From: Bongovirus reindeer
Lineage: Duplodnaviria; Heunggongvirae; Uroviricota; Caudoviricetes; Vilmaviridae
Virus record (IMG/VR): IMGVR_UViG_2974717242_000001
Span: 18,357-82,356 of that record
DNA: 64,000 nucleotides
Direction: 5' to 3' (one strand)
The notes under the pieces were generated by a model, which had not been told where the DNA came from, searched no databases, and saw only the letters and a program-made list of their open reading frames with translations. The translations under genes and the position numbers were made by a program. Positions 17,664 through 51,328 of the stretch are shown piece by piece (position 1 is the first letter of the stretch; every line of letters starts with the position of its first letter).

Positions 17664-17986
17664 AGCTCGCGGTATTGCGCCCGGTAGACATCGGCGGGCA
17701 TCGACCACGACTCATCCAGGTCGGGGTCGAGAACCACGTAGTCGCCGGGGCGCAGAATGTGGGTGTCCCGGCCAGGCTCATCGACGGCCATGTACGCCAG
17801 CGAGCCATCCTCGTTGAACTTCGCAACGACGTTCATCGGGACGCCGCGTCGCTCAGCCTCCTGGGCGACGATGTAGGAGACGCCCGCGAAGTTGCGGCCG
17901 GTCACCTTAACACCCAGCGAGTACTTCAGGTCGTAGGGCTGCACCCGTTTGATTCCAGTGCCCTTGATCGCGTTGTTGGTGCTCAT
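17660..17986 (-). CDS. hypothetical protein
   Basis: 108 aa, ATGA overlap with upstream gene. Confidence 0.6.
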   Translation of the reverse strand: MSTNNAIKGTGIKRVQPYDLKYSLGVKVTGRNFAGVSYIVAQEAERRGVPMNVVAKFNEDGSLAYMAVDEPGRDTHILRPGDYVVLDPDLDESWSMPADVYRAQYREL

Positions 17987-18780
17987 AGCATTCCCTTCGT
18001 TTTCCAGTGGTTGTAGTGCATGCCGATCAGCCAGTTGTCCAGCTGCTCGTAGTCGGGATGATCAGGGAGGCAGGAGGCCTCCATCGACTTGCGCAACAAG
18101 TCGGTGCGCCACTCGAGGACGCTGAGCGCCTCCTGCAGGTTGTACTGGCCGTCACGAACCGCCAGTAGGTAGTCGCGGTGATAGTCGAGCATCGGAAGGT
18201 GAATTTCACCCTCCGTCATGAGCTGCTCGCCCTGAATGGCCAGCCGCGTCGCGTGGTACATCATCTTCGTGTCGTAGCCGCACTTCTCCACCAGCTCGGG
18301 ACGGTTCGTGTGCTTGCGGCCACGAAGCCCCTGCGCCCGCTCACGCTGAGCGACAAGGTATCCAATGAACCGGCCCCCGGCCTGCTTCGACAGGAACAAG
18401 TCACGATTGCCGACCAGCTCGGCACCCGAGTCGTTCATGAAGTAGATGTGATGCCGAGGGGCGAACAGCGGTATCAGCACAGTCGGATTGCCTTGCGCGG
18501 CAAGGCGGGCCCACTTCTGCAGGCTGTAGATCACCTGATCAGTGTCGCCGGGGCCCGACCGCACACCCTCAGGGATGCGGGTGCCATCAGCATGCCAACG
18601 GTCCTGATACTGCTCGAACTGCCTGGTGCCGATCACGCACTCCGGAGGGGCGATGCACATGCCCATCTCGTCGTTGTCGTCGGCACCCACAGTCACGCCA
18701 TGCAGACGAGAACCGACCTCAGTCTTGTAGATCAGGTTCTCCTGGGCGATCTTCCGATGCCAGGGGCTGTTGTGGCTCAC
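17983..18780 (-). CDS. Pol-beta superfamily nucleotidyltransferase
   Basis: GS-x9-DDND motif (TEVGSRLHGVTVGADDNDEMG) near N-terminus, 265 aa. Strong RBS AAGGAG before GTG start. Confidence 0.55.
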   Translation of the reverse strand: MSHNSPWHRKIAQENLIYKTEVGSRLHGVTVGADDNDEMGMCIAPPECVIGTRQFEQYQDRWHADGTRIPEGVRSGPGDTDQVIYSLQKWARLAAQGNPTVLIPLFAPRHHIYFMNDSGAELVGNRDLFLSKQAGGRFIGYLVAQRERAQGLRGRKHTNRPELVEKCGYDTKMMYHATRLAIQGEQLMTEGEIHLPMLDYHRDYLLAVRDGQYNLQEALSVLEWRTDLLRKSMEASCLPDHPDYEQLDNWLIGMHYNHWKTKGML

Positions 18781-23190: not shown

Positions 23191-23501
23191 CAGCGATTGA
23201 GCAGCAGCTGACAGCCATCCTGGTGGCCGACGAAGGCGACGCCGTCTACTGCCTGCGGACGGAGCCCGATGTGGAGATCGGCGGCTTCAAGCATGTCGAT
23301 GTCGAAGAGGGCGAGGACCGGCGCTGGGTGCGTGGCGACATGGTCATCGTGCAGCACGTCGAGTCGGGTCGGTACTTCGCGTTCGACTACGACCACGGCC
23401 TGACTGAGTATCAGGATGACGAGGTGTTCCCCGATTCGGTGCGGGAGGTCGAGAAGACCACCAAGACGGTCGAGGTGACGATCTGGAAGCGGGTTAAGTG
23501 A
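23187..23501 (+). CDS. hypothetical protein
   Basis: GTGA overlap start. Track ORF starts further upstream at 23076. Confidence 0.5.
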   Translation: MTAIEQQLTAILVADEGDAVYCLRTEPDVEIGGFKHVDVEEGEDRRWVRGDMVIVQHVESGRYFAFDYDHGLTEYQDDEVFPDSVREVEKTTKTVEVTIWKRVK

Positions 23502-24091
23502 GCGGTGAGCACACCGGGTGCACCGATTCGGACGACACCACCTATGTGGTGTGTGAGGACGAGGACGGCACCGATGTCATCCGGTATTTCTTCCGTGGCT
23601 ACATTGATGACTCGACGGTTTCCCCACTGATCGAGACGTTCTACTACTGGGATGGGCATTACCCCGGTTCCCGGTGGGAGATCGACATCAATTCACCTGG
23701 TGGGGAGATCTTCCCGTCTATCGCGGTGTTCGGCGCTCTGCGTAGGTACAGCCAGCGAATGGGTGGGGCCCACCACATCACCACCCGCGCGTCTGGCTTG
23801 GCCGCTTCTGGTGGCGAGTTGATGCTGCAGGCTGGCGATCATCGTGTCGCTGGCCTGATGGACGCGATCATGATCCATGAACCGTTGTGCTCGTACGAGG
23901 ATCGCGCGGTCACGCAGATTCGTGACGATCTGGCTCGTGCTGAAGAGTGGACTCGCCGACTAGCGAAGGTTCACGCGGAACGGTCCAGCATCGATGAGGA
24001 AACGTTCCTCGCGAAGCTCAGGCTGGGGGACTGGTGGATGTATGCGGATGAGGCGCTGGAGCTGGGCTTCATTGATGAGGTGCTGCCGTGA
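23498..24091 (+). CDS. ClpP-like serine peptidase (S14 family)
   Basis: GTGA overlap. INSPGGEI and GLAASGGELM motifs correspond to ClpP SPGG and catalytic Ser region. 197 aa. Confidence 0.65.
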   Translation: MSGEHTGCTDSDDTTYVVCEDEDGTDVIRYFFRGYIDDSTVSPLIETFYYWDGHYPGSRWEIDINSPGGEIFPSIAVFGALRRYSQRMGGAHHITTRASGLAASGGELMLQAGDHRVAGLMDAIMIHEPLCSYEDRAVTQIRDDLARAEEWTRRLAKVHAERSSIDEETFLAKLRLGDWWMYADEALELGFIDEVLP

Positions 24092-37929: not shown

Positions 37930-38004
37930 ATGGGCGTAGCTGACAGGAAAGCAGCGGTCTCCAAAGCCGTGATGATGCAGGTTCGAATCCTGCCGCCCGT
38001 GCCA
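37930..38004 (+). tRNA. tRNA-Trp(CCA)
   Basis: Acceptor ATGGGCG/CGCCCGT, T-arm GCAGGTTCGAATCCTGC, anticodon loop CTCCAAA, encoded CCA end. D-stem weak. Confidence 0.55.
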
Positions 38005-38081
38005 CGTTCGATGTTCGGTGGTGACCGAACGCCGAACATGTTGGTTGAGAATTAAATAGTGGTAGTACAAGTAAGTTTCGA

Positions 38082-38451
38082 GGGGCTGTACTGGTTTTCG
38101 ATTACGAACCGAGTCCATGGAAGCGTGCCGGGAAGATACGCCCGTAACAGTTCAACCTTAATAAGCGCCGCATTTGTTGACGCTGATTACGCCGTAGCTG
38201 CGTGATCCGGTGGGGTAGAACGGTTTACCCGTTCCGTCTACCAATCCACCGTCGTCAATACGGGGACCGCAGGTACACCCAAGCATCTGCCAAACTGCTA
38301 GGGCCGTCCGGTCACGAGGACGTTAATCCCGTGTTCTTGCCCGTGGCAGATTGTGTCGCTATGCGAGGGGTGAAAATACAGAGGCACTACGCACGTAGAA
38401 GAATGAGTACAGAGAACGTAAGACGCGGGTTCGATTCCCGCCAGCTCCACC
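38082..38451 (+). ncRNA. ssrA: tmRNA (ssrA)
   Basis: 5' GGGGCTGTACTGGTTTTCGATTAC matches the tmRNA 5' consensus GGGGCUGAUUCUGGAUUCGAC. 3' end GACGCGGGTTCGATTCCCGCCAGCTCCACC is near-identical to the E. coli ssrA 3' end. G3-U70 in acceptor. Internal tag frame 38167-38205 encodes AAFVDADYAVAA-stop. Confidence 0.8.
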
Positions 38452-38692
38452 TGGGCCTGGGTTCTGGGTTCGAATCCCAGTGTGATTGAAGTGGATTCGC
38501 GGTCTGCAGCCGCGACTACGCTCCGGTGGGTAGCTCCCAGCCGCGTTCGCATGGTGTAATTGGCAAGCGCAGGGCCTGTTAAACCGGTTTCCCATCTCCG
38601 ACCAAAGGATGGGTGGTGGAAGACGAACTGGGTCTTAGGCAACCCCGTTCAGTCCTCGGCGTCCCAGCCCGCCGTCACCCGACTGGGCTAAG

Positions 38693-38767
38693 TGGGGTAT
38701 AGCCACAATGGCAGTGGCACTGGCCTGTTAAGCCGGATGAGTGTTGGTTCGAGTCCAGCTACCCTAG
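38693..38767 (+). tRNA. tRNA-Asn(GTT)
   Basis: Acceptor TGGGGTA/TACCCTA, D-stem GCCA/TGGC, anticodon stem CTGGC/GCCGG with loop CTGTTAA, T-arm GTTGGTTCGAGTCCAGC. No encoded CCA. Confidence 0.5.
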
Positions 38768-39678
38768 CGAGTGGAAGGTCGTCGGTTCGATTCCGACAGC
38801 GGAACAAACGGGCCGCTTAGCTCAGTGGCAGAGCATCCACGTTAACAACATTTGGGGCATGGCCCATAAGCTGAGGTGACTCAGTGAAAGGTGATGGTGA
38901 CATCTCGCCGCCCGCAAGGGTTCCCCATGCAATCCAAACCTTAAGCAGTTCCCGTTGGGGGCTGCCAGGTTGCGAGTTCATCGTGTGACCAACGCCAAGT
39001 GGTGAGGTCGGGTTCGGTACGTGCCGAAGGGCCAGCGAGTAACGGATGAGCAGCCTGTGGAATGGAAGGAACTTAAGTCAGAGCCTTGGCGGGTGACGGC
39101 GGGTTCCATGACCGATCTCGCGTGGACGACGGTTCACAATGCGGTTGAGGGAGAGAGTGAGTAGCCCGCCAGGCCAAAGCTCGAGAGGCGTGAAGCATTC
39201 TGTGCCCCAAAAGGGTTCGGAACTTCATGGGGAAGCACGTCTCTAGTCACAACTACCATGCTATTGGTTAGCAAACTGTCATTGAACACAGTTGTAGAGG
39301 TTCGACTCCTCGCAAAGCAAAAGCCTTTCCCTGCCGATGAGCAAAAGCGCCTTAATCCCCGACTGGGAGCAGAATCGGGGCAGGACGAGCCCGCAAGGCG
39401 GATCCTGTTTGTAGACAAGTAGTGCAGCCATGGGACGGCCATCCTAACGGCGAATCAAAAGTCGCAGAGTAGCTGTCGGTATGACGAGTGGTTCACGTTA
39501 CGGACCAGGCGTTGCACGTACACAGGGGACTGTGTGGACAAGTCGGGAATCCATAATCCGACGAAAGCGTGTGGTCGAGCGGTTTAGTCTCTAGCCCGCT
39601 CAACAATCGGAATGTGCGTCTAATGGCAAGGCGTGGGGGCACCCAGATGCAGGTTCGAATCCTGACTTTCCGGCATTT

Positions 39679-39755
39679 CCCGTGGCGAATTGGCGATCAC
39701 CGGTGACTGTAAATCACCCGCTTCGGCTGTGTAGGTTCGACTCCTGCCTGCGGGA
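39679..39755 (+). tRNA. tRNA-Tyr(GTA)-like
   Basis: Acceptor CCCGTGG/CTGCGGG (C1 start), perfect anticodon stem GGTGA/TCACC with loop CTGTAAA, 12-nt variable arm, T-arm GTAGGTTCGACTCCTGC. D-arm irregular. Confidence 0.4.
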
Positions 39756-39901
39756 CGACGAGACTGACGGGGCACAGTAGGTTCCAGGCTTGCGGCTGAA
39801 TCGAACACCCCCGCCCGCAAGGCCAGTCTCAATGACAACGCCTCGAAAACGTTGTCATCCGCTAGTGGAGAGGTGAGCGGACTGAATTGCCTTTCCAGCA
39901 T

Positions 39902-39973
39902 TGCCTGCTGGTGTAAATGACAGCACACGAAGCTCTGACCTTCGTAGTTCAGGTTTGAATCCTGGGCGGGCAT
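39902..39973 (+). tRNA. tRNA-Gln(CTG)
   Basis: Acceptor TGCCTGC/GCGGGCA (U1-A72 as in bacterial tRNA-Gln), D-stem GTGT/GCAC, anticodon stem CGAAG/CTTCG with loop CTCTGAC, T-arm TCAGGTTTGAATCCTGG. Confidence 0.55.
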
Positions 39974-40016
39974 CGAGATGGGTTGTCGGTATACCTCCAT
40001 GAAGGGAACCGTCACT

Positions 40017-40090
40017 CAGTCTGAGGTGTAAGTGGTTTGCATGGCCGGTTTGGATCCGGGCGGTTCGAGGTTCGAGTCCTCGCAGACTGA
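40017..40090 (+). tRNA. tRNA-Pro(TGG)
   Basis: Perfect acceptor CAGTCTG/CAGACTG (C1 start), anticodon loop TTTGGAT, perfect T-arm CGAGGTTCGAGTCCTCG. Confidence 0.5.
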
Positions 40091-40244
40091 CGTACCCGTT
40101 GGTGGATCGGATAACCACCCGACCTGATCTCAGGTTCCGTTAAGCAAATGAGATCGTGCCCCGTCGCCGTGGGATATGTCAGAAAAATCACGGGATCCCA
40201 TTGACCCGAGGGATTACGGCCTGATCAGCCGATAGGGTCAACCT

Positions 40245-40327
40245 GGAGGGATCCGCTGAATGGTCGGCAACCGGCGTCGAATACCGGGGCTGGGTGAAAC
40301 CAGGGGGTTCGATTCCTCATCCCTCCG
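40245..40327 (+). tRNA. tRNA-Ser(CGA), type II
   Basis: Acceptor GGAGGGA/TCCCTCC, anticodon loop GTCGAAT, long variable arm hairpin CTGG-GTGAAA-CCAG, T-loop TTCGATT. 83 nt. Confidence 0.55.
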
Positions 40328-40525
40328 CTCTGGAGAGTGGAACCATCTAGGTGGATGGCCGCGATTGCTAATCGCGGGGCAGCGTAACGCTGTGTGGATC
40401 GTGCCCACTCCTCTCCGCAATGAGAATCTAGCTGGCCAGCCATCAGGGTGTCGGTTCAACTCCGACAGGGAAAACCTGTGATTCTCAGGGGGTGCGGTTG
40501 GAGTCATGACCGTCGCATCCCATAT

Positions 40526-40598
40526 CGGGTTGTAGCTCAATTGGAAGAGCGCTGGCTTGAAACCCCAGAGGCTTCTGGTTCGAATCCAGGCATCCCGG
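40526..40598 (+). tRNA. tRNA-Phe(GAA)
   Basis: Canonical D-arm TAGCTCAATTGGAAGAGC, anticodon loop TTGAAAC, T-arm TCTGGTTCGAATCCAGG, acceptor CGGGTTG/CATCCCG. Confidence 0.6.
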
Positions 40599-40612
40599 CG
40601 CTAGGAGGCACT

Positions 40613-40804
40613 ATGTCGAACATGATGCGGATGCTCCGCAGGCCCCAGTGTAATCGGGGGTGTTGCGGTGGCGAACGTGAGCGTGAGGCCCAGCGGCCAG
40701 CCGAGAGGCGGCGAGTGCAGGCCGAGATCGACATGGAGACCTACGACATGACGCCAGACGCGGAATACGCGTGGCTGGAGTACATGTCAGGCATTGCGCG
40801 GTAG
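40613..40804 (+). CDS. small Cys/Arg-rich protein
   Basis: RBS CTAGGAGGC before ATG 40613. 63 aa, MSNMMRMLRRPQCNRGCCGG. Embedded between tRNAs. Track ORF 40448-40804 over-extends it. Confidence 0.5.
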   Translation: MSNMMRMLRRPQCNRGCCGGEREREAQRPAERRRVQAEIDMETYDMTPDAEYAWLEYMSGIAR

Positions 40805-40866
40805 TGAAATCGGGATCACACTGGTCTCATAAGCCAGCATTACGAGTTCGAGTCTCGTCTGCGCAA
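40795..40866 (+). tRNA. tRNA-Met(CAT)
   Basis: Acceptor TGCGCGG/CTGCGCA, D-arm TAGTGAAATCGGGATCAC, anticodon stem CTGGT/GCCAG with loop CTCATAA, T-arm ACGAGTTCGAGTCTCGT. Overlaps last codons of preceding CDS. Confidence 0.6.
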
Positions 40867-40947
40867 CGACGTATCAGGTTCTGCAAGGGGTAGGTAAAAA
40901 GGGTCCACGCCCCAGTGGCCCAAACCTGGTGCATTGAAAGGAAATAC

Positions 40948-41106
40948 ATGGCTGAGAAGCTGAAGTCCGGTGTTGCCGCCGCTCCGATTGTGAAGGCGGT
41001 CAATGATCTGATCGACGCGAGCGATGTCGATGTCGCCGCCCTGGCTGCGACTGTCGCGGATCTGGAGACGCGTGTGGAGGCGCTGGAGGCGGCTGCGGAG
41101 GCGTGA
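40948..41106 (+). CDS. small coiled-coil protein
   Basis: RBS GAAAGGAAA before ATG 40948, 52 aa, Ala-rich. Confidence 0.45.
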   Translation: MAEKLKSGVAAAPIVKAVNDLIDASDVDVAALAATVADLETRVEALEAAAEA

Positions 41107-41141
41107 TCGCCCGTCCTGGCCATGACGCGAAACTGGCCGAT

Positions 41142-41213
41142 CCCGCCGCAGCACGACGGACGTGCATCTCGCTACGAACGAGGGGGCTGCTGGTTCGAAT
41201 CCAGTCGGTGGGT
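41142..41213 (+). tRNA. tRNA-Arg(ACG)
   Basis: Acceptor CCCGCCG/CGGTGGG (C1 start), D-stem GCAC/GTGC, anticodon stem TCTCG/CGAGG with loop CTACGAA, T-arm GCTGGTTCGAATCCAGT. Confidence 0.55.
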
Positions 41214-41218
41214 CTATA

Positions 41219-41290
41219 CCCCTTGTGGCGTAATGGTTAGCGCAGCGGTCTGTGAAGCCGTCCATCACGGTTCGACTCCGTGCAGGGGGA
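41219..41290 (+). tRNA. tRNA-His(GTG)
   Basis: Acceptor CCCCTTG/CAGGGGG, D-arm GCGTAATGGTTAGCGC, anticodon stem GCGGT/GCCGT with loop CTGTGAA, perfect T-arm CACGGTTCGACTCCGTG. Confidence 0.55.
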
Positions 41291-41294
41291 CTTT

Positions 41295-41366
41295 GGCGAG
41301 GTGGCCGAGTTAGTTAGGCAGCAGGCTGCAACCCTGTTCACGCCGGGGCAGATCCGGCTCTCGTCT
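41295..41366 (+). tRNA. tRNA-Cys(GCA)-like
   Basis: Acceptor GGCGAGG/TCTCGTC, anticodon stem GCAGG/CCTGT with loop CTGCAAC. Atypical T-loop GGCAGAT in stem GCCGG/CCGGC. Confidence 0.4.
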
Positions 41367-41380
41367 CGAAGGGGTCACCC

Positions 41381-41638
41381 ATGGGTGTGTTGCTCTCCAG
41401 GGCCGAGCTGGAGCGCCTCAAGGAGGCTGCGGCATGGTTGGATCAGCAGCCGGAAGTTAAGGCGCGAGAGAGGCAGCTAGCGGCCATTCTGGAGCACGAG
41501 ATGCGCCTGGCCGGATGGGATGGTACTGGGGATCTTCGGCCGTGGTTCACGCGGTGCATGGAGATCAACCTCGCTTTGGATCAGACGCAGGGTCGACCGC
41601 CGTCGATTCAGAACTGGCCAGGCTATGAGGCTCGCTAG
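41381..41638 (+). CDS. hypothetical protein
   Basis: RBS GAAGGGG before ATG, 85 aa. 3' end overlaps the following tRNA. Confidence 0.5.
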   Translation: MGVLLSRAELERLKEAAAWLDQQPEVKARERQLAAILEHEMRLAGWDGTGDLRPWFTRCMEINLALDQTQGRPPSIQNWPGYEAR

Positions 41639-41702
41639 GCAAACTGGCAAAGCCGCCTGATTCAGAATCAGGTGCTTCCGAGTTCGACTCTCGGGCGAGC
41701 TA
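41629..41702 (+). tRNA. tRNA with CAG anticodon (Leu by anticodon) but short variable loop
   Basis: Acceptor GGCTCGC/GCGAGCT, anticodon stem CCTGA/TCAGG with loop TTCAGAA, perfect T-arm CCGAGTTCGACTCTCGG, variable loop only 4 nt. Confidence 0.45.
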
Positions 41703-41763
41703 CGTTTCACGCGGAGGTCTACGGGCTGATGCGGTTATTACTGGTCTGACGACCTGGAGATGA

Positions 41764-42726
<963 letters not shown>

Positions 42727-42733
42727 TCCCATC

Positions 42734-42806
42734 GGGACGTTGGTGAAACGGCTATCACCGCACGCTCTTAACGTGCCAGTTCTGGGTTCGAATCCCAGGC
42801 GTCCCA
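42734..42806 (+). tRNA. tRNA-Lys(CTT)
   Basis: Acceptor GGGACGT/GCGTCCC, anticodon stem GCACG/CGTGC with loop CTCTTAA, perfect T-arm CTGGGTTCGAATCCCAG. Confidence 0.55.
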
Positions 42807-42811
42807 CTTAA

Positions 42812-42885
42812 GCCTGTTTAGCTCAGTTGGTAAGAGCGCCTGCCTGATACGCAGGAGGTCGGTGGTTCAATCCCATCAACAGGTA
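42812..42885 (+). tRNA. tRNA-Ile(GAT)
   Basis: Canonical: acceptor GCCTGTT/AACAGGT, D-arm TAGCTCAGTTGGTAAGAGC, anticodon stem CCTGC/GCAGG with loop CTGATAC, T-arm GGTGGTTCAATCCCATC. Confidence 0.7.
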
Positions 42886-42897
42886 CGCAGTAACTCT

Positions 42898-42972
42898 GGG
42901 GTATTCATCTAGTCTGGCTTAGGATGCGACGCTTCCAACGTCGTCACGAGGGTTCGAATCCTTCATACCTCA
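42898..42972 (+). tRNA. tRNA-Gly(TCC)
   Basis: Acceptor GGGGTAT/ATACCTC, D-stem CATC/GATG, perfect anticodon stem CGACG/CGTCG with loop CTTCCAA, T-arm GAGGGTTCGAATCCTTC. Confidence 0.6.
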
Positions 42973-42978
42973 CTTTGC

Positions 42979-43049
42979 GCCGCTTTCGTCCAATGGTAGG
43001 GCACCTGGCTTACATCCAGATGACGGGAGTTCGATTCTCTCAAGCGGTA
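42979..43049 (+). tRNA. tRNA-Val(TAC)
   Basis: Acceptor GCCGCTT/AAGCGGT, D-loop AATGGTA, anticodon loop CTTACAT, T-arm GGGAGTTCGATTCTCTC. Confidence 0.5.
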
Positions 43050-43109
43050 CGTGGCCTGACGAGGCACCGGGGACTGGGTACCCGGCTTAGCGGCGAACAC
43101 CCACCCAAT

Positions 43110-43184
43110 GCCGATATAGCTCAATGGCTAGAGCCCTGCCTTAGTAACGCAGTGATCTCAGTTCGATTCTGAGTTTCGGCTCCA
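43110..43184 (+). tRNA. tRNA with encoded CCA, anticodon loop TTAGTAA (AGT, Thr?) isotype uncertain
   Basis: Canonical D-arm TAGCTCAATGGCTAGAGC, perfect T-arm CTCAGTTCGATTCTGAG, 3' TCCA. Anticodon stem has one C-C mismatch so the loop register is ambiguous. Confidence 0.5.
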
Positions 43185-43228
43185 CGGGCCACTTGCACGA
43201 GCACCCGTCCAAAACGCTTATGCACCAT

Positions 43229-43302
43229 GGGGGCGCATGTTCCAAGGTGGCGACCGACCCTTGCAAGGTTGGTGTGGTCGCGTTCGATTCGCACCGTCTC
43301 CA
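43229..43302 (+). tRNA. tRNA-Ala(TGC)-like with degenerate T-stem
   Basis: Acceptor GGGGGCG/CGTCTCC including G3-U70 Ala identity pair, anticodon stem CGACC/GGTTG with loop CTTGCAA. T-loop TTCGATT but only 3-bp T-stem, poor D-stem. Confidence 0.4.
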
Positions 43303-43356
43303 CGCTCAGTATGCAGATCGTAGGCCAATGGGCTATGAAATGCTTACTCGCACAAT

Positions 43357-43429
43357 CCCGATGTCATCTAGTGGCCTAGGATGCCGCCCTGTCGAGGCGG
43401 TCACGCGAGTTCAAATCTCGTCGTCGGGA
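43357..43429 (+). tRNA. tRNA-Asp(GTC)
   Basis: Acceptor CCCGATG/CGTCGGG (C1 start), D-stem CATC/GATG, perfect anticodon stem CCGCC/GGCGG with loop CTGTCGA, T-arm GCGAGTTCAAATCTCGT. Confidence 0.55.
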
Positions 43430-43479
43430 CTACGACCTTAGTGCAGCTTGGAGGTCTTTAAATATGAGGCTGCACGCCT

Positions 43480-43550
43480 GGTTCTATGGTGTAGTGGCAG
43501 CACGCGACCCTCTCAAGGTCTAGGCGGGAGTTCAATTCTCCCTAGAACTA
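43480..43550 (+). tRNA. tRNA-Glu(CTC)
   Basis: Acceptor GGTTCTA/TAGAACT, D-arm GTGTAGTGGCAGCAC, anticodon loop CTCTCAA, perfect T-arm GGGAGTTCAATTCTCCC. Confidence 0.55.
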
Positions 43551-43554
43551 CATT

Positions 43555-43590
43555 GACCCCCAATCACTTCGGTGGTTGGGGGTCTTTTTT
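43555..43590 (+). terminator. intrinsic terminator closing the tRNA array
   Basis: Stem GACCCCCAA / TTGGGGGTC followed by TTTTTT. Stoperator-like site immediately downstream. Confidence 0.7.
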
Positions 43591-43712
43591 ATGCCCTGAC
43601 CTGCGAATACAGGACGGGCACATACTTCTTGCCGTGAGTCCGATTGTGTTCCTCATCATCGTCGCGTTGGTGGGGCTCTCGCTCGCAATTCTTTGTCACT
43701 AGAAGGGATTTC

Positions 43713-44930
43713 ATGGCACCCACTACGCTAGCTCCGAAGGTGGTCAGCTTCGCCTCGGAGATCGATCAGGCGACGATTGACCAGGCGATGCAGATCGCTG
43801 AGATGCCGTTCATTCACCCACATTTGGCGTTGATGCCGGATGCTCATTCGGGCAAGGGTTCTGCGGTGGGGACTGTCATTCCCACGGTGGGTGCGGTGAT
43901 TCCGGCCGCTGTGGGTGTGGACATCGGCTGCGGCATGATCGCGGTGAGGACGCGGTTCACTCTCTCGGATCTGCAGATCAAGCATCATGTCAACCTGCTC
44001 GCCGAGATTCCGCTGGCGTCGCTGCGCCGCCAGATCGAGGAAGCGATCCCGCTGTCACCGGGCAACTACAACTCGACGTTGTCGAAGTTCGCGTTTACCC
44101 GCAAGAAGCATGAGGAGCTGATCCAGCTTCAGCAGGAGCTGGATGTCGACCTGTCCCACAGTCCGAAGTGGATGGAGCAGCTGGGTTCCCTCGGCGGCGG
44201 CAACCACTTCATCGAGCTGTGCCTGGACGAGGACGACACGGTGTGGCTGTTCCTGCATTCGGGTTCGCGGGGTGTGGGCAACAAGATCGCCCAGGTCCAC
44301 ATTAAGGCGGCGCAGGCATTCTGTGATCTCTACGGTGAGAAGCTGCCGAACCGCGACCTGGCGTACCTGGTGGAGAACACGTACGAGTTCGACCGGTATA
44401 TCAGGGAGCTGGAGTGGGCCCAGCGGTTCGCCTACCTGAACCGTGCGGAGATGATGGACCGCTTCGTCCACGTGTTCGCGTGGTGGCTGGGCGTGGAGGC
44501 TCAGCGTGTCGAGGTGGAGCGCATCAACTGCCACCACAACTACACGGTGCCGACCGTGAATGATGGCGAGCGGGTGTGGTTGACCCGCAAGGGTGCCATC
44601 GATGCGTCGGAGGGCAAGCTGGGGGTGATTCCCGGCTCGATGGGCACCAGGTCGTATGTGGTGCGGGGGAAGGGCTGCAGCGCTGGTTTGCTCTCTGCCC
44701 CTCATGGGGCGGGTCGCCGGTACTCCCGCACGAAGGCCAAGGAACTGTTCACCAAGGATGACTTGGCTGAGCAGATGCAGGGCATCGAGTGGCGCGAGGA
44801 CATCGCCGACAAGCTGGTCGATGAGATTCCGTCCTCGTACAAAGACATCGACCAGGTGATGGCTGATGCGGAGCCGTTGGTTGAGGTGGTGACCACCTTG
44901 CGCCAAGTCCTGAACGTCAAGGGTACGTAG
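43713..44930 (+). CDS. rtcB: RtcB-family RNA ligase
   Basis: RBS GAAGGGA before ATG 43713. ALMPDAHSGKGS, GGGNHFIEL, HSGSRGVG and SAPHGAGR are hallmark RtcB motifs. 405 aa. Confidence 0.8.
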   Translation: MAPTTLAPKVVSFASEIDQATIDQAMQIAEMPFIHPHLALMPDAHSGKGSAVGTVIPTVGAVIPAAVGVDIGCGMIAVRTRFTLSDLQIKHHVNLLAEIPLASLRRQIEEAIPLSPGNYNSTLSKFAFTRKKHEELIQLQQELDVDLSHSPKWMEQLGSLGGGNHFIELCLDEDDTVWLFLHSGSRGVGNKIAQVHIKAAQAFCDLYGEKLPNRDLAYLVENTYEFDRYIRELEWAQRFAYLNRAEMMDRFVHVFAWWLGVEAQRVEVERINCHHNYTVPTVNDGERVWLTRKGAIDASEGKLGVIPGSMGTRSYVVRGKGCSAGLLSAPHGAGRRYSRTKAKELFTKDDLAEQMQGIEWREDIADKLVDEIPSSYKDIDQVMADAEPLVEVVTTLRQVLNVKGT

Positions 44931-50423: not shown

Positions 50424-50653
50424 CCGAGTTCTTCACTGTCATTGCCATGGTGGATGGGTGGCCCACATCGGACACTGACGTGTCTACGAACTCTCACCGG
50501 AGTGTTCGGTCATACAAGTCGGAGAAGATCGCTCAGCGGGCCATTCAGACGGCAGCACAGGATCCTCGTGTGACGTATCGGATCTTGCACACGGTGGTGG
50601 ATCCGGACATGACTGCCACATCGCGGTTCACTGACTTTGTGTGGTGCGTGTGA
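50420..50653 (+). CDS. hypothetical protein
   Basis: ATGA overlap, 77 aa. Confidence 0.5.
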   Translation: MTEFFTVIAMVDGWPTSDTDVSTNSHRSVRSYKSEKIAQRAIQTAAQDPRVTYRILHTVVDPDMTATSRFTDFVWCV

Positions 50654-50782
50654 GTCGCCGCGAGTTGGCGTTCTCGGTCACGCTGGATGACTGCCGGGTT
50701 GATACGTTCCGCGCTGTCGAGCGTGACATGTGGCCAGTGAATCTCAAGACCGAGGTTCGAGAGAATGGAAAGTGGGTAGTAG

Positions 50783-51328
50783 ATGGCGGTCACTGAAGCT
50801 CCGTTCGACCAGAACGGCAACATGATCTCGTACCCCGGTGAGATCACCGGCTGGGAGTGGTATCTCGATGATGAGGGCAACCAGCGGTACCGCGCCATCC
50901 GCGCCGAGATGACCCCAATGGAGCCGTTTTACGGTGAGATGCGTGTCGTTGGCATCGAGACCGGCCGCAGCGCGAAGCGTCTCGTCCTGGAGGACATCAA
51001 CACCGGCAAGACGTACCCGTTGTTTGTCGCGGACATCGTGAAGCTGCTGCAGGACGCTGGCACCGTGCTCACGGGGACATGGGGTGCGTCTAAGCGTGGC
51101 CAGAACTACGGCATCAAGCGAGTGGCTCCAGGGCCAGCGCAAGAGCGGCTCGAACAGATGAGGCCACTGCTGGGCAAGCAGGTGAAGGTCACCCTGGACA
51201 ACGAGGATCCGAAGGCCATCGCCACCGGCAAGCTGCTGAGCTTCAGTGACTGTGGTGATGTCGTGGTCGAGGACGATATGGGGTTCGTGCATTACTGCTG
51301 GCCGAACCTGAAGACGGAGGAGATCTGA
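50783..51328 (+). CDS. hypothetical protein
   Basis: 181 aa. A 48-aa GTGA-coupled ORF (50650-50796) may precede it. Confidence 0.55.
   Translation: MAVTEAPFDQNGNMISYPGEITGWEWYLDDEGNQRYRAIRAEMTPMEPFYGEMRVVGIETGRSAKRLVLEDINTGKTYPLFVADIVKLLQDAGTVLTGTWGASKRGQNYGIKRVAPGPAQERLEQMRPLLGKQVKVTLDNEDPKAIATGKLLSFSDCGDVVVEDDMGFVHYCWPNLKTEEI

What the first reader, a model, noticed from the sequence alone, without database searches (positions are those of the whole stretch)
37930..43590. 5.7-kb tRNA array with at least 20 tRNAs, many non-canonical
Manual folding identifies tRNAs for Trp, Asn, Tyr, Gln, Pro, Ser, Phe, Met, Arg, His, Cys, Leu(CAG), Lys, Ile, Gly, Val, Ala, Asp, Glu and one tRNA with an AGT anticodon. 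Unusual features recur. Several genes start with C1 or U1 (Arg, His, Asp, Pro, Tyr; Gln and Met with U1-A72). Most lack an encoded CCA. Several have only one nucleotide between acceptor and D stem. The CAG-anticodon tRNA has a 4-nt variable loop instead of the type II Leu arm. One tRNA has A34. The Ala tRNA keeps G3-U70 but has a 3-bp T stem. Small protein genes (40613-40804, 40948-41106, 41381-41638) are interleaved and overlap tRNA ends.
Basis: seen in the sequence. Interest (0 to 1): 0.65.

Follow-up and report, generated by a model that had tools for sequence, protein, structure and literature searches.

The report
Known mycobacteriophage tRNA, tmRNA, GOLLD island

Summary
A relaxed run adds a 21st, tRNA-Ser(CGA) at 40245-40328.

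The window is 100% identical to Mycobacterium phage Reindeer (NC_053516, cluster M1). The same array is annotated in Bongo and PegLeg and was described by Pope et al. 2014, so the finding is already known.

The CAG tRNA is a short-arm (type I) Leu tRNA. Its relatives in M2 phages carry TAG and CAA, which are also Leu anticodons. The AGT tRNA is Thr with A34 and is conserved in all six phages compared.

Late structural genes are tuned to the set: ACT 33% against 6-11% elsewhere, CGT 42% against 13-19%, AAA 1%, CAA 2%, ATA and TTA 0.

Possibly new details:
- a covariation-supported 334-nt domain 5' of the GOLLD match, which makes the annotated CDS gp95 doubtful;
- a circularly permuted tRNA-like module (38771-38840);
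- an anticodon-less tRNA-like element (39608-39673).

Interest in the finding as given is low to moderate.

The parts
37930..38004 (+). tRNA-Trp(CCA), A1-U72, encoded CCA
   Evidence: ARAGORN; Rfam 52.5 bits
38082..38452 (+). tmRNA; G3.U70 acceptor; tag AAFVDADYAVAA*; not annotated in NC_053516
   Evidence: Rfam RF00023 95.8 bits (gathering score 47). Tag read. Orthologues score 93-101 bits in five related phages and are annotated in Bongo, PegLeg and Aziz.
38693..38768 (+). tRNA-Asn(GTT), U1-A72
38771..38840 (+). circularly permuted tRNA-like module: T arm, loop-capped acceptor stem and D arm, enclosed by an anticodon-stem-like helix (YrlA-type architecture)
   Evidence: Rfam YrlA 31.9 bits, below the gathering score of 69. 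In alignment A4, 8 of 21 pairs have compensatory double changes and 97.6% of cells are paired; slid controls give 30-49%.
38849..39182 (+). structured RNA domain directly 5' of the GOLLD match; proposed divergent 5' domain of GOLLD; contains the annotated CDS gp95 (39021-39164)
   Evidence: Colinear block conserved in cluster M phages and M. abscessus prophages. RNAalifold gives 62 pairs, 25 of them compensatory. 94.2% of cells are paired against 83.0% in shuffles (0/500); slid controls give 31-43%. The gp95 frame is broken outside M1 phages.
39183..39597 (+). GOLLD RNA, conserved 3' domain (full-length match to the Rfam model); the linker carries a T-arm remnant
   Evidence: RF02032 206.1 bits (gathering score 150), E 9e-57, model positions 1-416 of 416. 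Scores are 182-216 bits in ten related phages and prophages.
39608..39673 (+). tRNA-like element with a truncated anticodon arm (no 7-nt loop), directly 3' of GOLLD
   Evidence: Rfam tRNA 24.4 bits, below the gathering score; fold. The orthologous slot carries anticodons ACG, CGC or TCG in other phages.
39679..39756 (+). tRNA-Tyr(GTA), C1-G72, 11-nt variable region, weak D arm
   Evidence: ARAGORN; Rfam only 22.2 bits; compensatory acceptor and anticodon-stem changes across phages
39902..39974 (+). tRNA-Gln(CTG), U1-A72; G19->A together with C56->U
   Evidence: ARAGORN; orthologue comparison; not detected by Rfam in Reindeer
40017..40091 (+). tRNA-Pro(TGG), C1-G72, A73
   Evidence: Rfam tRNA-Sec model 29.8 bits. 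ARAGORN -ps90 calls it. Compensatory acceptor changes in A2. About 84% identical copies in more than 100 cluster C phages, some annotated tRNA-Ser.
40335..40416 (+). tRNA-Ser(GCT), class II, 4-bp T stem, T loop ATCGTGC
   Evidence: ARAGORN; no Rfam hit; nearly identical in Bongo and PegLeg, not found in M2 phages
40526..40599 (+). tRNA-Phe(GAA), C1-G72; not annotated in the record, where CDS gp101 is laid over it
40613..40804 (+). orphan ORF (63 aa) whose TAG stop is U8-A9-G10 of tRNA-Met
   Evidence: no relative in 50,697 phage records; no Pfam hit
40795..40867 (+). tRNA-Met(CAT), U1-A72, elongator-like anticodon stem
40948..41106 (+). small conserved protein gp103 (start as in Bongo and the M2 phages)
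   Evidence: alignment A7
41142..41214 (+). tRNA-Arg(ACG), A34, C1-G72
   Evidence: Rfam 42 bits
41219..41291 (+). tRNA-His(GTG), C1-G72, A73, A at -1 (no encoded G-1)
41295..41367 (+). tRNA-Cys(GCA), U73, T loop GGCAGAT
41381..41638 (+). conserved small protein gp107; its stop codon is U8-A9-G10 of tRNA-Leu
   Evidence: 43-49% amino-acid identity between M1 and M2 phages, alignment A6
41629..41703 (+). tRNA-Leu(CAG), type I (4-nt variable loop), 3-bp D stem with 11-nt D loop, A73; not annotated in the record
   Evidence: ARAGORN; Rfam 55 bits. M2 relatives carry TAG and CAA with the same short form.
41773..42726 (+). ribonucleotide reductase beta subunit gene inside the array
   Evidence: record annotation; ORF
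42734..42807 (+). tRNA-Lys(CTT)
42812..42886 (+). tRNA-Ile(GAT)
   Evidence: 70 bits
42898..42973 (+). tRNA-Gly(TCC)
42979..43050 (+). tRNA-Val(TAC)
43110..43184 (+). tRNA-Thr(AGT), A34, encoded CCA
   Evidence: 55.5 bits. A34 is conserved in six phages with compensatory stem changes. ACT is enriched in late genes.
43229..43303 (+). tRNA-Ala(TGC), G3.U70, interrupted T stem
   Evidence: ARAGORN; no Rfam hit; the M2 version has a regular T stem
43357..43430 (+). tRNA-Asp(GTC), C1-G72
43480..43551 (+). tRNA-Glu(CTC)
43555..43594 (+). intrinsic terminator (13-bp stem, 8 GC pairs, TTCG loop, T6) closing the array
43713..44930 (+). RtcB RNA ligase
   Evidence: Pfam PF01139 363.8 bits; record gp117
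17983..18780 (-). RlaP-family nucleotidyltransferase (record: 'tRNA nucleotidyltransferase', gp49)
   Evidence: Pfam PF10127 99 bits; record annotation; enzyme activity described in PMC12776372
36835..37161 (+). HNH endonuclease upstream of the array
   Evidence: Pfam PF01844 25.1 bits; record gp90

Best explanation
This is the translation island of the temperate cluster M1 mycobacteriophage Reindeer. It appears to be one rightward transcription unit (about 37930-43594) closed by a strong terminator.

The unit encodes 21 tRNAs covering all 20 amino acids, a tmRNA and a roughly 750-nt GOLLD RNA flanked by tRNA-like elements. An RNR-beta gene and a few small genes are interleaved. An RtcB RNA ligase gene follows, and an RlaP RNA-repair nucleotidyltransferase is encoded elsewhere in the genome.

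The primary transcript is presumably cut by host RNase P and 3'-end enzymes. The tRNAs then receive CCA, are charged by host synthetases and feed the ribosomes that translate the phage's late structural genes. The codon choice of those genes is tuned to this tRNA set.

The tmRNA rescues stalled ribosomes, and RtcB with RlaP repairs cut tRNAs. Together they keep translation running late in infection, when host tRNAs are inadequate or are being destroyed by host tRNA-targeting toxins.

Shown here: the genes, their conservation and covariation, and the codon match. Inferred: co-transcription, processing, charging, the anti-depletion purpose, and any role of GOLLD, whose function is unknown.
For: Identity: the region is 100% identical to NC_053516, Mycobacterium phage Reindeer. 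The gene order Trp-tmRNA-Asn-GOLLD-...-Glu-RtcB is the same in Bongo, PegLeg, Aziz, Estes and MrMagoo.

Genes: ARAGORN finds 20 tRNAs, exactly one per amino acid, plus Ser(CGA). Rfam gives tmRNA 95.8 bits and GOLLD 206 bits. Pfam gives RtcB 363.8 bits and RlaP 99 bits.

Function of the tRNAs: orthologues show many compensatory changes in acceptor and anticodon stems between M1 and M2 phages, while anticodons and 1-72 pairs are kept. The Leu slot varies only among Leu anticodons (CAG, TAG, CAA).

Codon match, 28 late structural genes against the other genes:
- ACT 33% against 6-11%; CGT 42% against 13-19%; TCG 52% against 24-35%.
- AAA 1% against 8-19%; CAA 2% against 11-26%; GAA 13% against 22-35%.
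- ATA 0, TTA 0, AGA 2 codons.
- ACA is only 4% of Thr codons. This is the pattern reported for the unmodified-A34 tRNA-Thr(AGU) of Mycoplasma capricolum (PMC3711424).
- In the Pro, Ala and Val boxes, which are served by U34 tRNAs, NNT codons rise and NNC codons fall.

Single unit: every gene is on the + strand, and the only strong + strand terminator sits 4 nt after the last tRNA.

Processing: U at -1 in 14 of 21 tRNAs. C74 is encoded in 20 of 21, but CCA in only 2.

Literature: M2 phages carry 21 tRNAs and a tmRNA (PMC7953290). tRNA arrays with a tmRNA and a ~430-nt structured RNA occur in cluster M phages (PMC5966550). Phage tRNAs have been proposed to escape mycobacterial anticodon nucleases (PMC10264068). 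A type I tRNA-Leu is leucylated in the actinobacterium S. coelicolor (PMC6614811). From my memory of the abstract of Pope et al. 2014 (J Virol 88:2461; not readable here), the same late-gene tRNA hypothesis, the tmRNA and RtcB were described there.
Against: No expression, processing or aminoacylation data were available here.

Five of the 21 tRNAs fail the general Rfam tRNA model: Tyr, Gln, Ser(GCT), Ser(CGA) and Ala. Several have defects that could make them inactive, such as the Ala T stem, the Ser(GCT) and Cys T loops, and tRNA-His without G-1.

The set is not self-sufficient under strict wobble rules. Only 68% of late-gene codons are readable. GGC and GGT make up 80% of Gly codons although only tRNA-Gly(UCC) is encoded, and 40% of Leu codons are not CTG.

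No sigma-70-like promoter was found on the + strand. Host tRNAs could not be compared because the host genome was not fetched.
Confidence: 0.85

Rival explanations
1. Only the roughly 16 canonical tRNAs work. The oddest species (Ala with a broken T stem, Ser(GCT), Tyr, perhaps His and Cys, and the 39608-39673 element) are decaying pseudogenes, or serve only as RNase P / RNase Z processing handles in the transcript.
For: These species fail or barely reach the Rfam tRNA model. The element at 39608-39673 has lost its anticodon loop. Bongo and PegLeg lack tRNA-Ala at this position, and M2 phages lack Ser(GCT). Gene content varies between close relatives, with HNH endonucleases inserted among the tRNAs.
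Against: Tyr shows compensatory changes in the acceptor and anticodon stems across phages. Gln shows a compensatory change of the tertiary 19-56 pair. Ser(CGA) is conserved from cluster M to cluster C phages and reads the commonest late Ser codon, TCG at 52%. tRNA-Cys keeps the U73 identity base.
Confidence: 0.3
2. The array only corrects a codon-usage mismatch between phage and host, or widens host range. It has no link to host tRNA destruction, and tmRNA, RtcB and RlaP are unrelated passengers.
For: The late-gene codon bias follows the phage tRNA set, which is all that this model needs. Codon and host-range explanations are the classical ones cited in PMC5966550.
Against: A full set of 20 isotypes, including those for codons that are common in a GC-rich host (CTG, AAG, GAG, CAG, GAC), is more than bias correction needs. 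Co-location with a tmRNA and RtcB, plus an RlaP repair enzyme, is conserved across M1, M2 and the M. abscessus prophages.
Confidence: 0.25
3. Some non-canonical tRNAs are charged with a different amino acid from the one their anticodon implies. For example, the type I CAG tRNA may not be charged with leucine, or the G-1-less GTG tRNA may not be charged with histidine. The phage would then recode its late proteins.
For: tRNA-Leu lacks the class II arm. tRNA-His lacks G-1 and C73, and several discriminator bases differ from E. coli identity rules. E. coli LeuRS does not charge the S. coelicolor type I tRNA-Leu (PMC6614811).
Against: The Leu slot changes only among Leu anticodons (CAG, TAG, CAA) and keeps A73 and a Leu-type D arm. 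Cys keeps U73, Ala keeps G3.U70, Ser(CGA) keeps G73, and Pro keeps C1-G72 with A73. CTG is the main Leu codon in conserved structural proteins, at 58%. An actinobacterial LeuRS charges a type I tRNA-Leu (PMC6614811).
Confidence: 0.03
4. The tRNAs exist mainly as partners or cargo of the GOLLD RNA cage, or as recombination and HNH-homing targets. Decoding is secondary.
For: GOLLD is always embedded among tRNAs and often carries a tRNA in its linker: Estes, Rey and the M. abscessus prophages. Kretsch et al. 2025 speculate that the cage may enclose tRNAs (PMC12286853). HNH genes interrupt the arrays.
Against: The late-gene codon tuning to the anticodon set is hard to explain without decoding. Most tRNAs lie kilobases away from GOLLD.
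Confidence: 0.08

Closest known systems
[quoted passage not shown] 2014, J Virol 88:2461); the 'G1' tRNA array group of Morgado & Vicente 2018 (PMC5966550)
   Same: Same phage family; the window is Reindeer, genus Bongovirus. The gene order, the odd species (Leu-CAG type I, Thr-AGT), the tmRNA, RtcB and HNH genes are all shared.
   Different: Reindeer has exactly one tRNA per amino acid plus a second Ser. It has a tRNA-Ala that Bongo and PegLeg lack. It carries the permuted tRNA-like module otherwise seen in M2 phages, and it has lost the anticodon loop of the tRNA after GOLLD. Its GenBank record omits the tmRNA, GOLLD, tRNA-Phe, tRNA-Leu and Ser(CGA).
GOLLD RNA (Rfam RF02032; Weinberg et al. 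2009; 14-mer nanocage of env-38, Kretsch et al. 2025, PMC12286853; Mycobacterium tRNA arrays, Morgado et al. 2020)
   Same: Full-length match to the Rfam model at 206 bits. It is phage-encoded, sits among tRNAs, and has a variable linker holding a tRNA or a tRNA remnant.
   Different: The Rfam model covers only the 3' domain. Here the 334 nt upstream form a separate, covariation-supported domain. It is shorter than the 420-nt 5' domain of env-38, and homology to that domain could not be tested. Papers on mycobacteria that I could read give the RNA as about 430 nt or as more than 400 nt.
Cluster C (Bxz1-like) mycobacteriophage tRNA clusters with tmRNA
   Same: Large tRNA sets plus a tmRNA in phages of the same host. 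They share the Ser(CGA) gene at about 84% identity.
   Different: Different phage type (large myoviruses) with about 33 tRNAs, and they encode Ro60 with a true YrlA (PMC4201824). No Ro60 gene is annotated in Reindeer.
YrlA, the bacterial Y RNA with a tRNA-like domain (Rfam RF02553; Chen et al. 2014, PMC4201824)
   Same: The same permuted layout: T arm, capped acceptor-like stem and D arm, enclosed by a stem in place of the anticodon arm.
   Different: Scores are 31.9 and 43.6 bits against a gathering score of 69. Only the tRNA-like core (model positions 23-85) matches; the Ro60-binding helix does not. No Ro60 gene lies nearby.
Type I tRNA-Leu(CAA) of Streptomyces coelicolor (PMC6614811) and tRNA-Thr(AGU) of Mycoplasma capricolum (cited in PMC3711424)
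   Same: One is a short-variable-loop tRNA-Leu charged by an actinobacterial LeuRS. The other is an A34 tRNA-Thr that reads ACN codons, with ACA read worst.
   Different: The Reindeer genes are phage-encoded. Charging by M. smegmatis LeuRS and the modification state of A34 are unknown.
Phage T4 tRNA cluster with Pnkp/Rnl1 repair against the PrrC anticodon nuclease
   Same: A phage that carries its own tRNAs together with tRNA-repair enzymes (established knowledge).
   Different: T4 has 8 tRNAs and a different ligase chemistry. Here the enzymes are RtcB and RlaP, with a full isotype set. No cognate host nuclease has been identified.

Membership tests
Cluster M mycobacteriophage tRNA array | Sequence belongs to a cluster M phage genome | tested here: met
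   100% identity over 5901 nt to NC_053516 (Reindeer, Bongovirus); 88-90% to other M1 phages and 82-84% to M2 phages
Cluster M mycobacteriophage tRNA array | About 5-kb block of 21-24 tRNAs with a tmRNA, followed by RtcB, in conserved order | tested here: met
Cluster M mycobacteriophage tRNA array | Late genes avoid codons for which no phage tRNA exists | tested here: met
   ATA 0, TTA 0, AGA 2, AAA 5 and CAA 9 codons out of 9407 late-gene codons
tRNA (RF00005) | Score at or above the gathering score of 29 bits | tested here: inconclusive
   16 of 21 pass. Tyr scores 22.2 bits. Gln, Ser(GCT) and Ala give no hit. Ser(CGA) is seen only by the tRNA-Sec model, at 29.8 bits against a gathering score of 47.
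tRNA (RF00005) | Cloverleaf kept by compensatory changes in relatives | tested here: met
   Orthologue table and alignment A2 for Ser(CGA). Not informative for Ser(GCT), which is nearly identical in the only relatives that have it.
tRNA (RF00005) | Maturation and aminoacylation | not testable with these tools
   Needs tRNA-seq or acid-gel northern blots
tmRNA (RF00023) | Score at or above the gathering score; tRNA-like domain with G3.U70; tag reading frame starting at an Ala codon and ending in a stop | tested here: met
   95.8 bits against 47. The 5' end is GGGGCTG and the 3' end is CAGCTCCACC. The tag is AAFVDADYAVAA*. ARAGORN does not call it in Reindeer but does in Aziz.
GOLLD RNA (RF02032) | Score at or above the gathering score of 150 bits over the whole model | tested here: met
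   206.1 bits, model positions 1-416 of 416
GOLLD RNA (RF02032) | Phage or prophage location next to tRNA genes | tested here: met
GOLLD RNA (RF02032) | Separate, less conserved 5' domain preceding the 3' domain | tested here: inconclusive
   A structured 334-nt domain of the right position and size is supported by covariation. Homology to the 5' domains of other GOLLDs could not be tested.
GOLLD RNA (RF02032) | Homo-oligomeric nanocage | not testable with these tools
   Needs cryo-EM or native gels
YrlA (RF02553) | Score at or above the gathering score of 69 bits | tested here: not met
   31.9 bits in Reindeer and 43.6 bits in Rey
YrlA (RF02553) | tRNA-like module | tested here: met
YrlA (RF02553) | Ro60-binding helix, and a neighbouring Ro60 (rsr) gene | tested here: not met
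   The outer helix of the model is not matched. No Ro60 gene is annotated anywhere in the record; this rests on annotation only, with no domain search of all ORFs.
RtcB RNA ligase (PF01139) | Pfam score above the cut-off over the full profile | tested here: met
   363.8 bits against 27, profile positions 1-426 of 426
RlaP nucleotidyltransferase (PF10127) | Pfam score above the cut-off | tested here: met
   99 bits against 23, profile positions 17-248 of 249
Type I tRNA-Leu | Leu anticodon with a short variable loop; charged by LeuRS | tested here: inconclusive
   The 4-nt variable loop and the Leu-only anticodon variation are shown. Charging is not testable here.

The most novel reading that the evidence does not exclude
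The conserved odd acceptor ends of these phage tRNAs are an adaptation. The features are C1-G72 in Tyr, Phe, Arg, His and Asp, G1.U72 in four others, tRNA-His without G-1, and C74 encoded while CCA is almost never encoded. They would let the phage set escape mycobacterial toxins that act on tRNA acceptor or 3' ends, such as the MenT nucleotidyltransferases. The phage's own RlaP nucleotidyltransferase and RtcB ligase would then finish or repair those ends. In parallel, the roughly 750-nt two-domain GOLLD, bracketed by a permuted tRNA-like module and an anticodon-less tRNA-like element, would be released from the same transcript by tRNA-processing enzymes.
Probability: 0.12. Interest if true: 0.65.

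Novelty: already known. Interest (0 to 1): 0.3.

Why it matters
As given, the finding re-discovers a published feature. Cluster M mycobacteriophages carry a near-complete private tRNA set with a tmRNA and RtcB, thought to sustain late translation. It matters mainly as a check that reading raw sequence can recover such islands accurately.

Value added here is at the level of curation and leads:
- The RefSeq record of Reindeer lacks the tmRNA, GOLLD, tRNA-Phe, tRNA-Leu and tRNA-Ser(CGA). It also carries two doubtful CDSs, gp95 and the long form of gp101.
- The mycobacterial and cluster M GOLLD seems to have an unmodelled 5' domain. That bears on whether it can build a cage like env-38.
- tRNA-like elements bracket GOLLD, which suggests how its ends are made.
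- The Ser(CGA) gene, missed by default tRNA finders, is present in more than 100 cluster C phages. This touches the published claim that mycobacteriophages avoid such anticodons (PMC10264068).

Tried and rejected
- **Papers not held.** Pope et al. 2014 (PMC3958112) and Morgado et al. 2020 (PMC7549688) could not be read. What they say about the odd tRNAs and the extent of GOLLD rests on my memory of the Pope abstract, on the titles and on citing papers.
- **YrlA membership.** Rejected for 38771-38840. The scores are below the gathering score and the Ro-binding helix is absent.
- **BLAST of the permuted module.** It found only junctions of tandem tRNAs in unrelated phages. The reading 'two tRNA fragments' was rejected because the acceptor and anticodon-like strands covary with each other.
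- **gp95 (39021-39164) as a protein gene.** Rejected. Its frame has stops or frameshifts in 7 of the 8 non-M1 sequences, and it lies in a covarying RNA domain.
- **ORF 40613-40804.** No relative in any phage record and no Pfam hit. It is left as an orphan.
- **ARAGORN at -ps80.** It gave about ten extra calls, some antisense and some inside the RNR gene. I treated them as noise apart from Ser(CGA), which already appears at -ps90.
- **Sigma-70 promoter scan.** Nothing on the + strand.
- **CCCCATGCAA at 38923.** It resembles the M2 cos overhang, but Reindeer's own end differs and one match is within chance (10 of 100 shuffles). I dismissed it as the partner strand of a helix.
- **gp131 'RF-1 domain' (50 aa).** No Pfam hit.
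- **Not done.** The host genome was not fetched, so phage and host tRNAs were not compared directly. tRNAscan-SE is not available here.

Full report
**1. Observation**

ARAGORN on the whole 64-kb window returns 20 tRNA genes. All are on the + strand between 37930 and 43551, and none lie elsewhere. The 'AGT' species is tRNA-Thr. The set contains exactly one tRNA for each of the 20 amino acids.

Rfam's general tRNA model passes 14 of them with default filters and 16 with lax filters on the region alone. Leu(CAG) scores 55.0 bits and Thr(AGT) 55.5 bits against a gathering score of 29. Tyr scores 22 bits. Gln, Ser(GCT) and Ala are not seen by Rfam.

The structural claims were checked on ARAGORN's folds:
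- C1-G72 in Tyr, Pro, Phe, Arg, His and Asp.
- U1-A72 in Asn, Gln and Met.
- G1.U72 in Leu, Ile, Val and Glu.
- CCA encoded only in Trp and Thr.
- A 4-nt variable loop in Leu(CAG).
- G3.U70 and an interrupted T stem in Ala.

The claim of a single nucleotide between the acceptor and D stems was not reproduced. Two tRNAs have A34 (Arg-ACG and Thr-AGT), not one.

**2. What the window is**

The region is 100% identical to Mycobacterium phage Reindeer. This is NC_053516, 82,356 bp, genus Bongovirus, cluster M1, host M. smegmatis. The window is the last 64,000 nt of that genome.

The record annotates 19 different tRNAs, with Pro listed twice. It lacks tRNA-Phe, which is covered by CDS gp101, and it lacks tRNA-Leu(CAG).

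The same array, in the same order, is annotated in Bongo and PegLeg, including a tmRNA, tRNA-Leu(cag) and tRNA-Thr(agt). It is also annotated in the M2 phages Aziz, Estes and MrMagoo.

Relevant literature:
- Cluster M arrays were described by Pope et al. 2014 (J Virol 88:2461). I could not read that paper. From memory of its abstract, it reports 21-24 tRNAs, a tmRNA, RtcB and the late-gene hypothesis.
- Fitzgerald et al. 2021 (PMC7953290) confirm 21 tRNAs and a tmRNA in M2 phages.
- Morgado & Vicente 2018 (PMC5966550) place cluster M arrays in their 'G1' group. They note a tmRNA and a ~430-nt structured RNA in the arrays.

**3.

(a) A tmRNA at 38082-38452 scores 95.8 bits in Rfam against a gathering score of 47. 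It has a G3.U70 acceptor stem and the tag AAFVDADYAVAA*.

(b) A GOLLD RNA at 39183-39597 scores 206 bits against 150 and matches the full length of the model. Both RNAs are present at the same positions in all five relatives compared. There GOLLD scores 182-216 bits and the tmRNA 93-101 bits.

(c) A 21st tRNA, a class II tRNA-Ser(CGA), lies at 40245-40328.
- It was flagged by the tRNA-Sec model at 29.8 bits and is called by ARAGORN at -ps90.
- It has compensatory acceptor changes in Bongo, PegLeg and Estes.
- Copies about 84% identical occur in more than 100 cluster C phages, some annotated as tRNA-Ser.

(d) An element at 39608-39673 has tRNA acceptor, D and T arms but a truncated anticodon arm. 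It lies directly 3' of GOLLD. In relatives the same slot holds a tRNA-like gene with the same acceptor and T arms, but with anticodon ACG, CGC or TCG.

(e) A strong intrinsic terminator lies 4 nt after the last tRNA. It has a 13-bp stem followed by T6, at 43555-43594. RtcB follows (Pfam 363.8 bits).

Elsewhere in the genome, gp49 is annotated 'tRNA nucleotidyltransferase'. It is an RlaP-family enzyme (PF10127, 99 bits). That family adds one or two nucleotides to damaged RNA 3' ends in RNA repair (PMC12776372).

**4. Are the odd tRNAs functional?**

I compared six phages: M1 (Reindeer, Bongo, PegLeg) and M2 (Aziz, Estes, MrMagoo). Stems change by compensatory substitutions, for example:
- Tyr: CCCGTGG/CTGCGGG against CTCGTCG/CGGCGAG.
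- Pro: CAGTCTG, CTGGGTG and CGGGATA, each with a matching 3' strand.

Anticodons and the unusual 1-72 pairs are kept throughout.

The short-arm Leu gene carries CAG in M1 phages. Its M2 counterparts carry TAG and CAA. All are 75-77 nt with A73, so the anticodon varies only within the Leu box. This argues that they are real Leu tRNAs.

A type I tRNA-Leu(CAA) exists in the actinobacterium Streptomyces coelicolor and is charged by its LeuRS. E. coli LeuRS does not charge it (PMC6614811).

A34 of tRNA-Thr is conserved in all six phages. tRNA-Thr(AGT) is rare in mycobacterial genomes (PMC9569102).

In Reindeer's tRNA-Gln, G19 has become A and C56 has become U. This is a compensatory change of the elbow tertiary pair, and it explains why Rfam misses this tRNA.

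Some identity bases fit the E. coli rules (my knowledge): U73 in Cys, G3.U70 and A73 in Ala, G73 in Ser(CGA), and C1-G72 with A73 in Pro. Others do not. The clearest case is tRNA-His with A at -1 and A73 and no G-1, conserved in all six phages. I have no explanation for it.

**5. Codon usage**

I used the record's CDS table to compare the 28 late structural genes (9407 codons) with the other genes.

| Codon | Late genes | Other genes |
|---|---|---|
| ACT (Thr) | 33% | 6-11% |
| CGT (Arg) | 42% | 13-19% |
| TCG (Ser) | 52% | 24-35% |
| AAA (Lys) | 1% | 8-19% |
| CAA (Gln) | 2% | 11-26% |
| GAA (Glu) | 13% | 22-35% |

- ATA and TTA do not occur in the late genes, and AGA occurs twice.
- In the Pro, Ala and Val boxes, which are served by U34 tRNAs, T-ending codons rise and C-ending codons fall.
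- Thr codons are ACT 33%, ACC 29%, ACG 34% and ACA 4%. This matches the decoding reported for the unmodified-A34 tRNA-Thr(AGU) of Mycoplasma capricolum, which reads all four ACN codons with ACA worst (PMC3711424).

The late genes are therefore tuned to the phage tRNA set. This reproduces the published argument, and it also supports the Ser(CGA) gene.

The set is not self-sufficient. Only 68% of late codons are readable under strict wobble rules. GGC and GGT (80% of Gly codons) and the non-CTG Leu codons (40%) have no dedicated phage tRNA.

**6. GOLLD has more to it than the Rfam match**

The Rfam model corresponds to the conserved 3' domain. In env-38 that domain is residues 421-833, and the 5' domain is residues 1-420 (PMC12286853).

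A BLAST search with 38769-39597 shows that the block from about 38847 to 39597 is colinear in all cluster M phages. It is also colinear in three M. abscessus prophages at 70-73% identity.

I aligned the part upstream of the Rfam match (38849-39182, 334 nt) from ten phages and prophages. The domain boundary was confirmed by Rfam in each.
- RNAalifold predicts 62 pairs in 13 helices, several with GNRA loops, and a long-range helix closes the domain. 25 pairs show changes on both sides.
- On that structure 94.2% of cells are paired, against 83.0 +/- 1.0% in shuffles (0 of 500 reach it). Controls with the 3' partner slid by 1-3 columns give 31-43% paired and 1-7 compensatory pairs.

Because the structure was predicted on the same alignment, the slid control is somewhat favourable to it. 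The double changes in hairpins are still plain in the raw alignment, for example CTGAG/CTCAG, CCAGG/CCTGG and CCACC/GGTGG.

The annotated CDS gp95 (39021-39164) lies inside this domain. It is open only in M1 phages. In 7 of the 8 other sequences the frame has stops or frameshifts, so it is probably not a gene.

I read this as the divergent 5' domain of a roughly 750-nt GOLLD. Homology to other GOLLD 5' domains could not be tested.

The GOLLD linker carries a whole tRNA in Estes (Leu-TAG), Rey (Ser) and the M. abscessus prophages (Gln-TTG). In Reindeer only a T-arm remnant is left there.

**7. A permuted tRNA-like module**

Between tRNA-Asn and GOLLD, at 38771-38840, lies an element made of a T arm, an acceptor-like stem closed by a loop, and a D arm. 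All three are enclosed by a stem that takes the place of the anticodon stem.

It is present in Reindeer and in the M2 phages Aziz, Estes, MrMagoo and Rey. It is absent in Bongo and PegLeg.

With only four distinct sequences, 8 of 21 pairs show compensatory double changes and 97.6% of cells pair. Slid controls give 30-49% paired and 0-1 compensatory pairs.

Rfam's YrlA model hits it at 31.9 bits in Reindeer and 43.6 bits in Rey. Both are below the gathering score of 69, and only the tRNA-like core of the model matches. The phage record annotates no Ro60 gene. The element therefore works like the tRNA-like half of a Y RNA, but it is not a demonstrated YrlA.

**8. Small ORFs**

- gp107 (41381-41638) is conserved at 43-49% amino-acid identity between M1 and M2 phages. 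Its stop codon is the U8-A9-G10 triplet of tRNA-Leu.
- The ORF at 40613-40804 has no relative anywhere. Its stop is the U8-A9-G10 triplet of tRNA-Met. The record's longer gp101 (from 40448) runs across tRNA-Phe and is surely wrong.

**9. Mechanism and verdict**

The best-supported reading is the published one. This is a phage-borne, co-transcribed set of tRNAs used for late translation, backed by ribosome rescue (tmRNA) and RNA repair (RtcB, RlaP). Its likely role is to keep translation going when host tRNAs are inadequate or are being attacked. Mycobacteria are rich in tRNA-cleaving and tRNA-modifying toxins (PMC10264068; PMC10435456, which itself suggests phage tRNAs as MenT targets).

Shown here: the genes, their conservation and the codon match. 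Inferred: transcription as one unit, processing, charging and purpose. The function of GOLLD remains unknown.

The finding is real, correctly located and largely correctly read, but it is already known. The side observations are leads rather than established novelties, partly because the two key papers could not be read. These are the 5' domain of the mycobacterial GOLLD, the permuted tRNA-like module, the tRNA-like element after GOLLD, the overlooked Ser(CGA), and the annotation gaps in the record.

Noticed in passing
window 38082-38452: A tmRNA (Rfam 95.8 bits; tag AAFVDADYAVAA*) is not annotated in the Reindeer record and is not called by ARAGORN. M2 relatives have tags ending in ...YAVGA or ...YAVGV instead of ...AA.
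   Followed up: yes
window 38849-39597: The GOLLD 3' domain (39183-39597) is preceded by a 334-nt domain supported by covariation. The annotated CDS gp95 (39021-39164) lies inside that domain and is not conserved as an ORF outside M1 phages.
   Followed up: yes
window 38771-38840: A circularly permuted tRNA-like module with YrlA-like architecture, scoring below the Rfam threshold. It shows compensatory changes against M2 phages and is absent from Bongo and PegLeg.
   Followed up: partly
window 39608-39673: A tRNA-like element without an anticodon loop lies directly after GOLLD. In relatives the same slot keeps the acceptor and T arms but carries anticodon ACG, CGC or TCG, with mismatches in the acceptor stem.
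   Followed up: partly
window 40245-40328: tRNA-Ser(CGA) is missed by default ARAGORN. Copies about 84% identical sit in more than 100 cluster C phages, mostly unannotated. This is at odds with the published statement that mycobacteriophages avoid Ser anticodons containing GA (PMC10264068).
   Followed up: partly
window 41219-41291: tRNA-His has C1-G72, A73 and A at -1, with no encoded G-1. This is conserved in all six cluster M phages compared and remains unexplained.
   Followed up: partly
window 39902-39974: In tRNA-Gln, G19 has changed to A together with C56 to U. This is a compensatory change of the D-loop/T-loop tertiary pair relative to Bongo, and it explains why Rfam misses this tRNA.
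   Followed up: partly
window 37930-43551 (all tRNAs): 20 of 21 tRNAs encode C74, but only 2 encode CCA. U is at position -1 in 14 of 21. A CAAT or CCAT motif often precedes position +1, most clearly in M2 phages.
   Followed up: partly
window 43555-43594: A strong intrinsic terminator (13-bp stem, then T6) lies 4 nt after tRNA-Glu. It marks the end of the array just before RtcB.
   Followed up: yes
window 17983-18780 (- strand): gp49, annotated 'tRNA nucleotidyltransferase', is an RlaP-family RNA-repair nucleotidyltransferase (PF10127, 99 bits), not a classical CCA-adding enzyme. A ClpP-like protease gene lies at 23498-24091.
   Followed up: partly
window 40448-40804 and 40017-40091: Errors in the record: CDS gp101 runs across tRNA-Phe, tRNA-Pro is listed twice (genes 98 and 99), and tRNA-Phe and tRNA-Leu(CAG) are missing.
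   Followed up: yes
window 50644-50796: gp131, annotated 'RF-1 domain peptide chain release factor' (50 aa), gives no Pfam hit at E <= 0.01.
   Followed up: partly
L005 3686-3757; L013 1084-1157; L010 1015-1088: Complete tRNA genes are embedded in the GOLLD linker: Leu-TAG in Estes, Ser in Rey and Gln-TTG in M. abscessus prophages. Reindeer keeps only a T-arm remnant in its linker (about 39300-39320).
   Followed up: partly
L003 7030-7066; L005 7037-7072; L006 6875-6910: An abiF RNA motif (RF03085, 38-43 bits against a gathering score of 37) lies between tRNA-Gly and tRNA-Val in M2 phages. It is absent in Reindeer, where only 5 nt separate these genes.
   Followed up: no
window 38923-38932: The invariant CCCCATGCAA in the GOLLD 5' domain resembles the M2 cos overhang ACCCCATGCAA. 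Reindeer's own right end is ...CCTCGTGCAA, and a single match is within chance. It is most simply the partner strand of the GGGGCATGG helix.
   Followed up: yes
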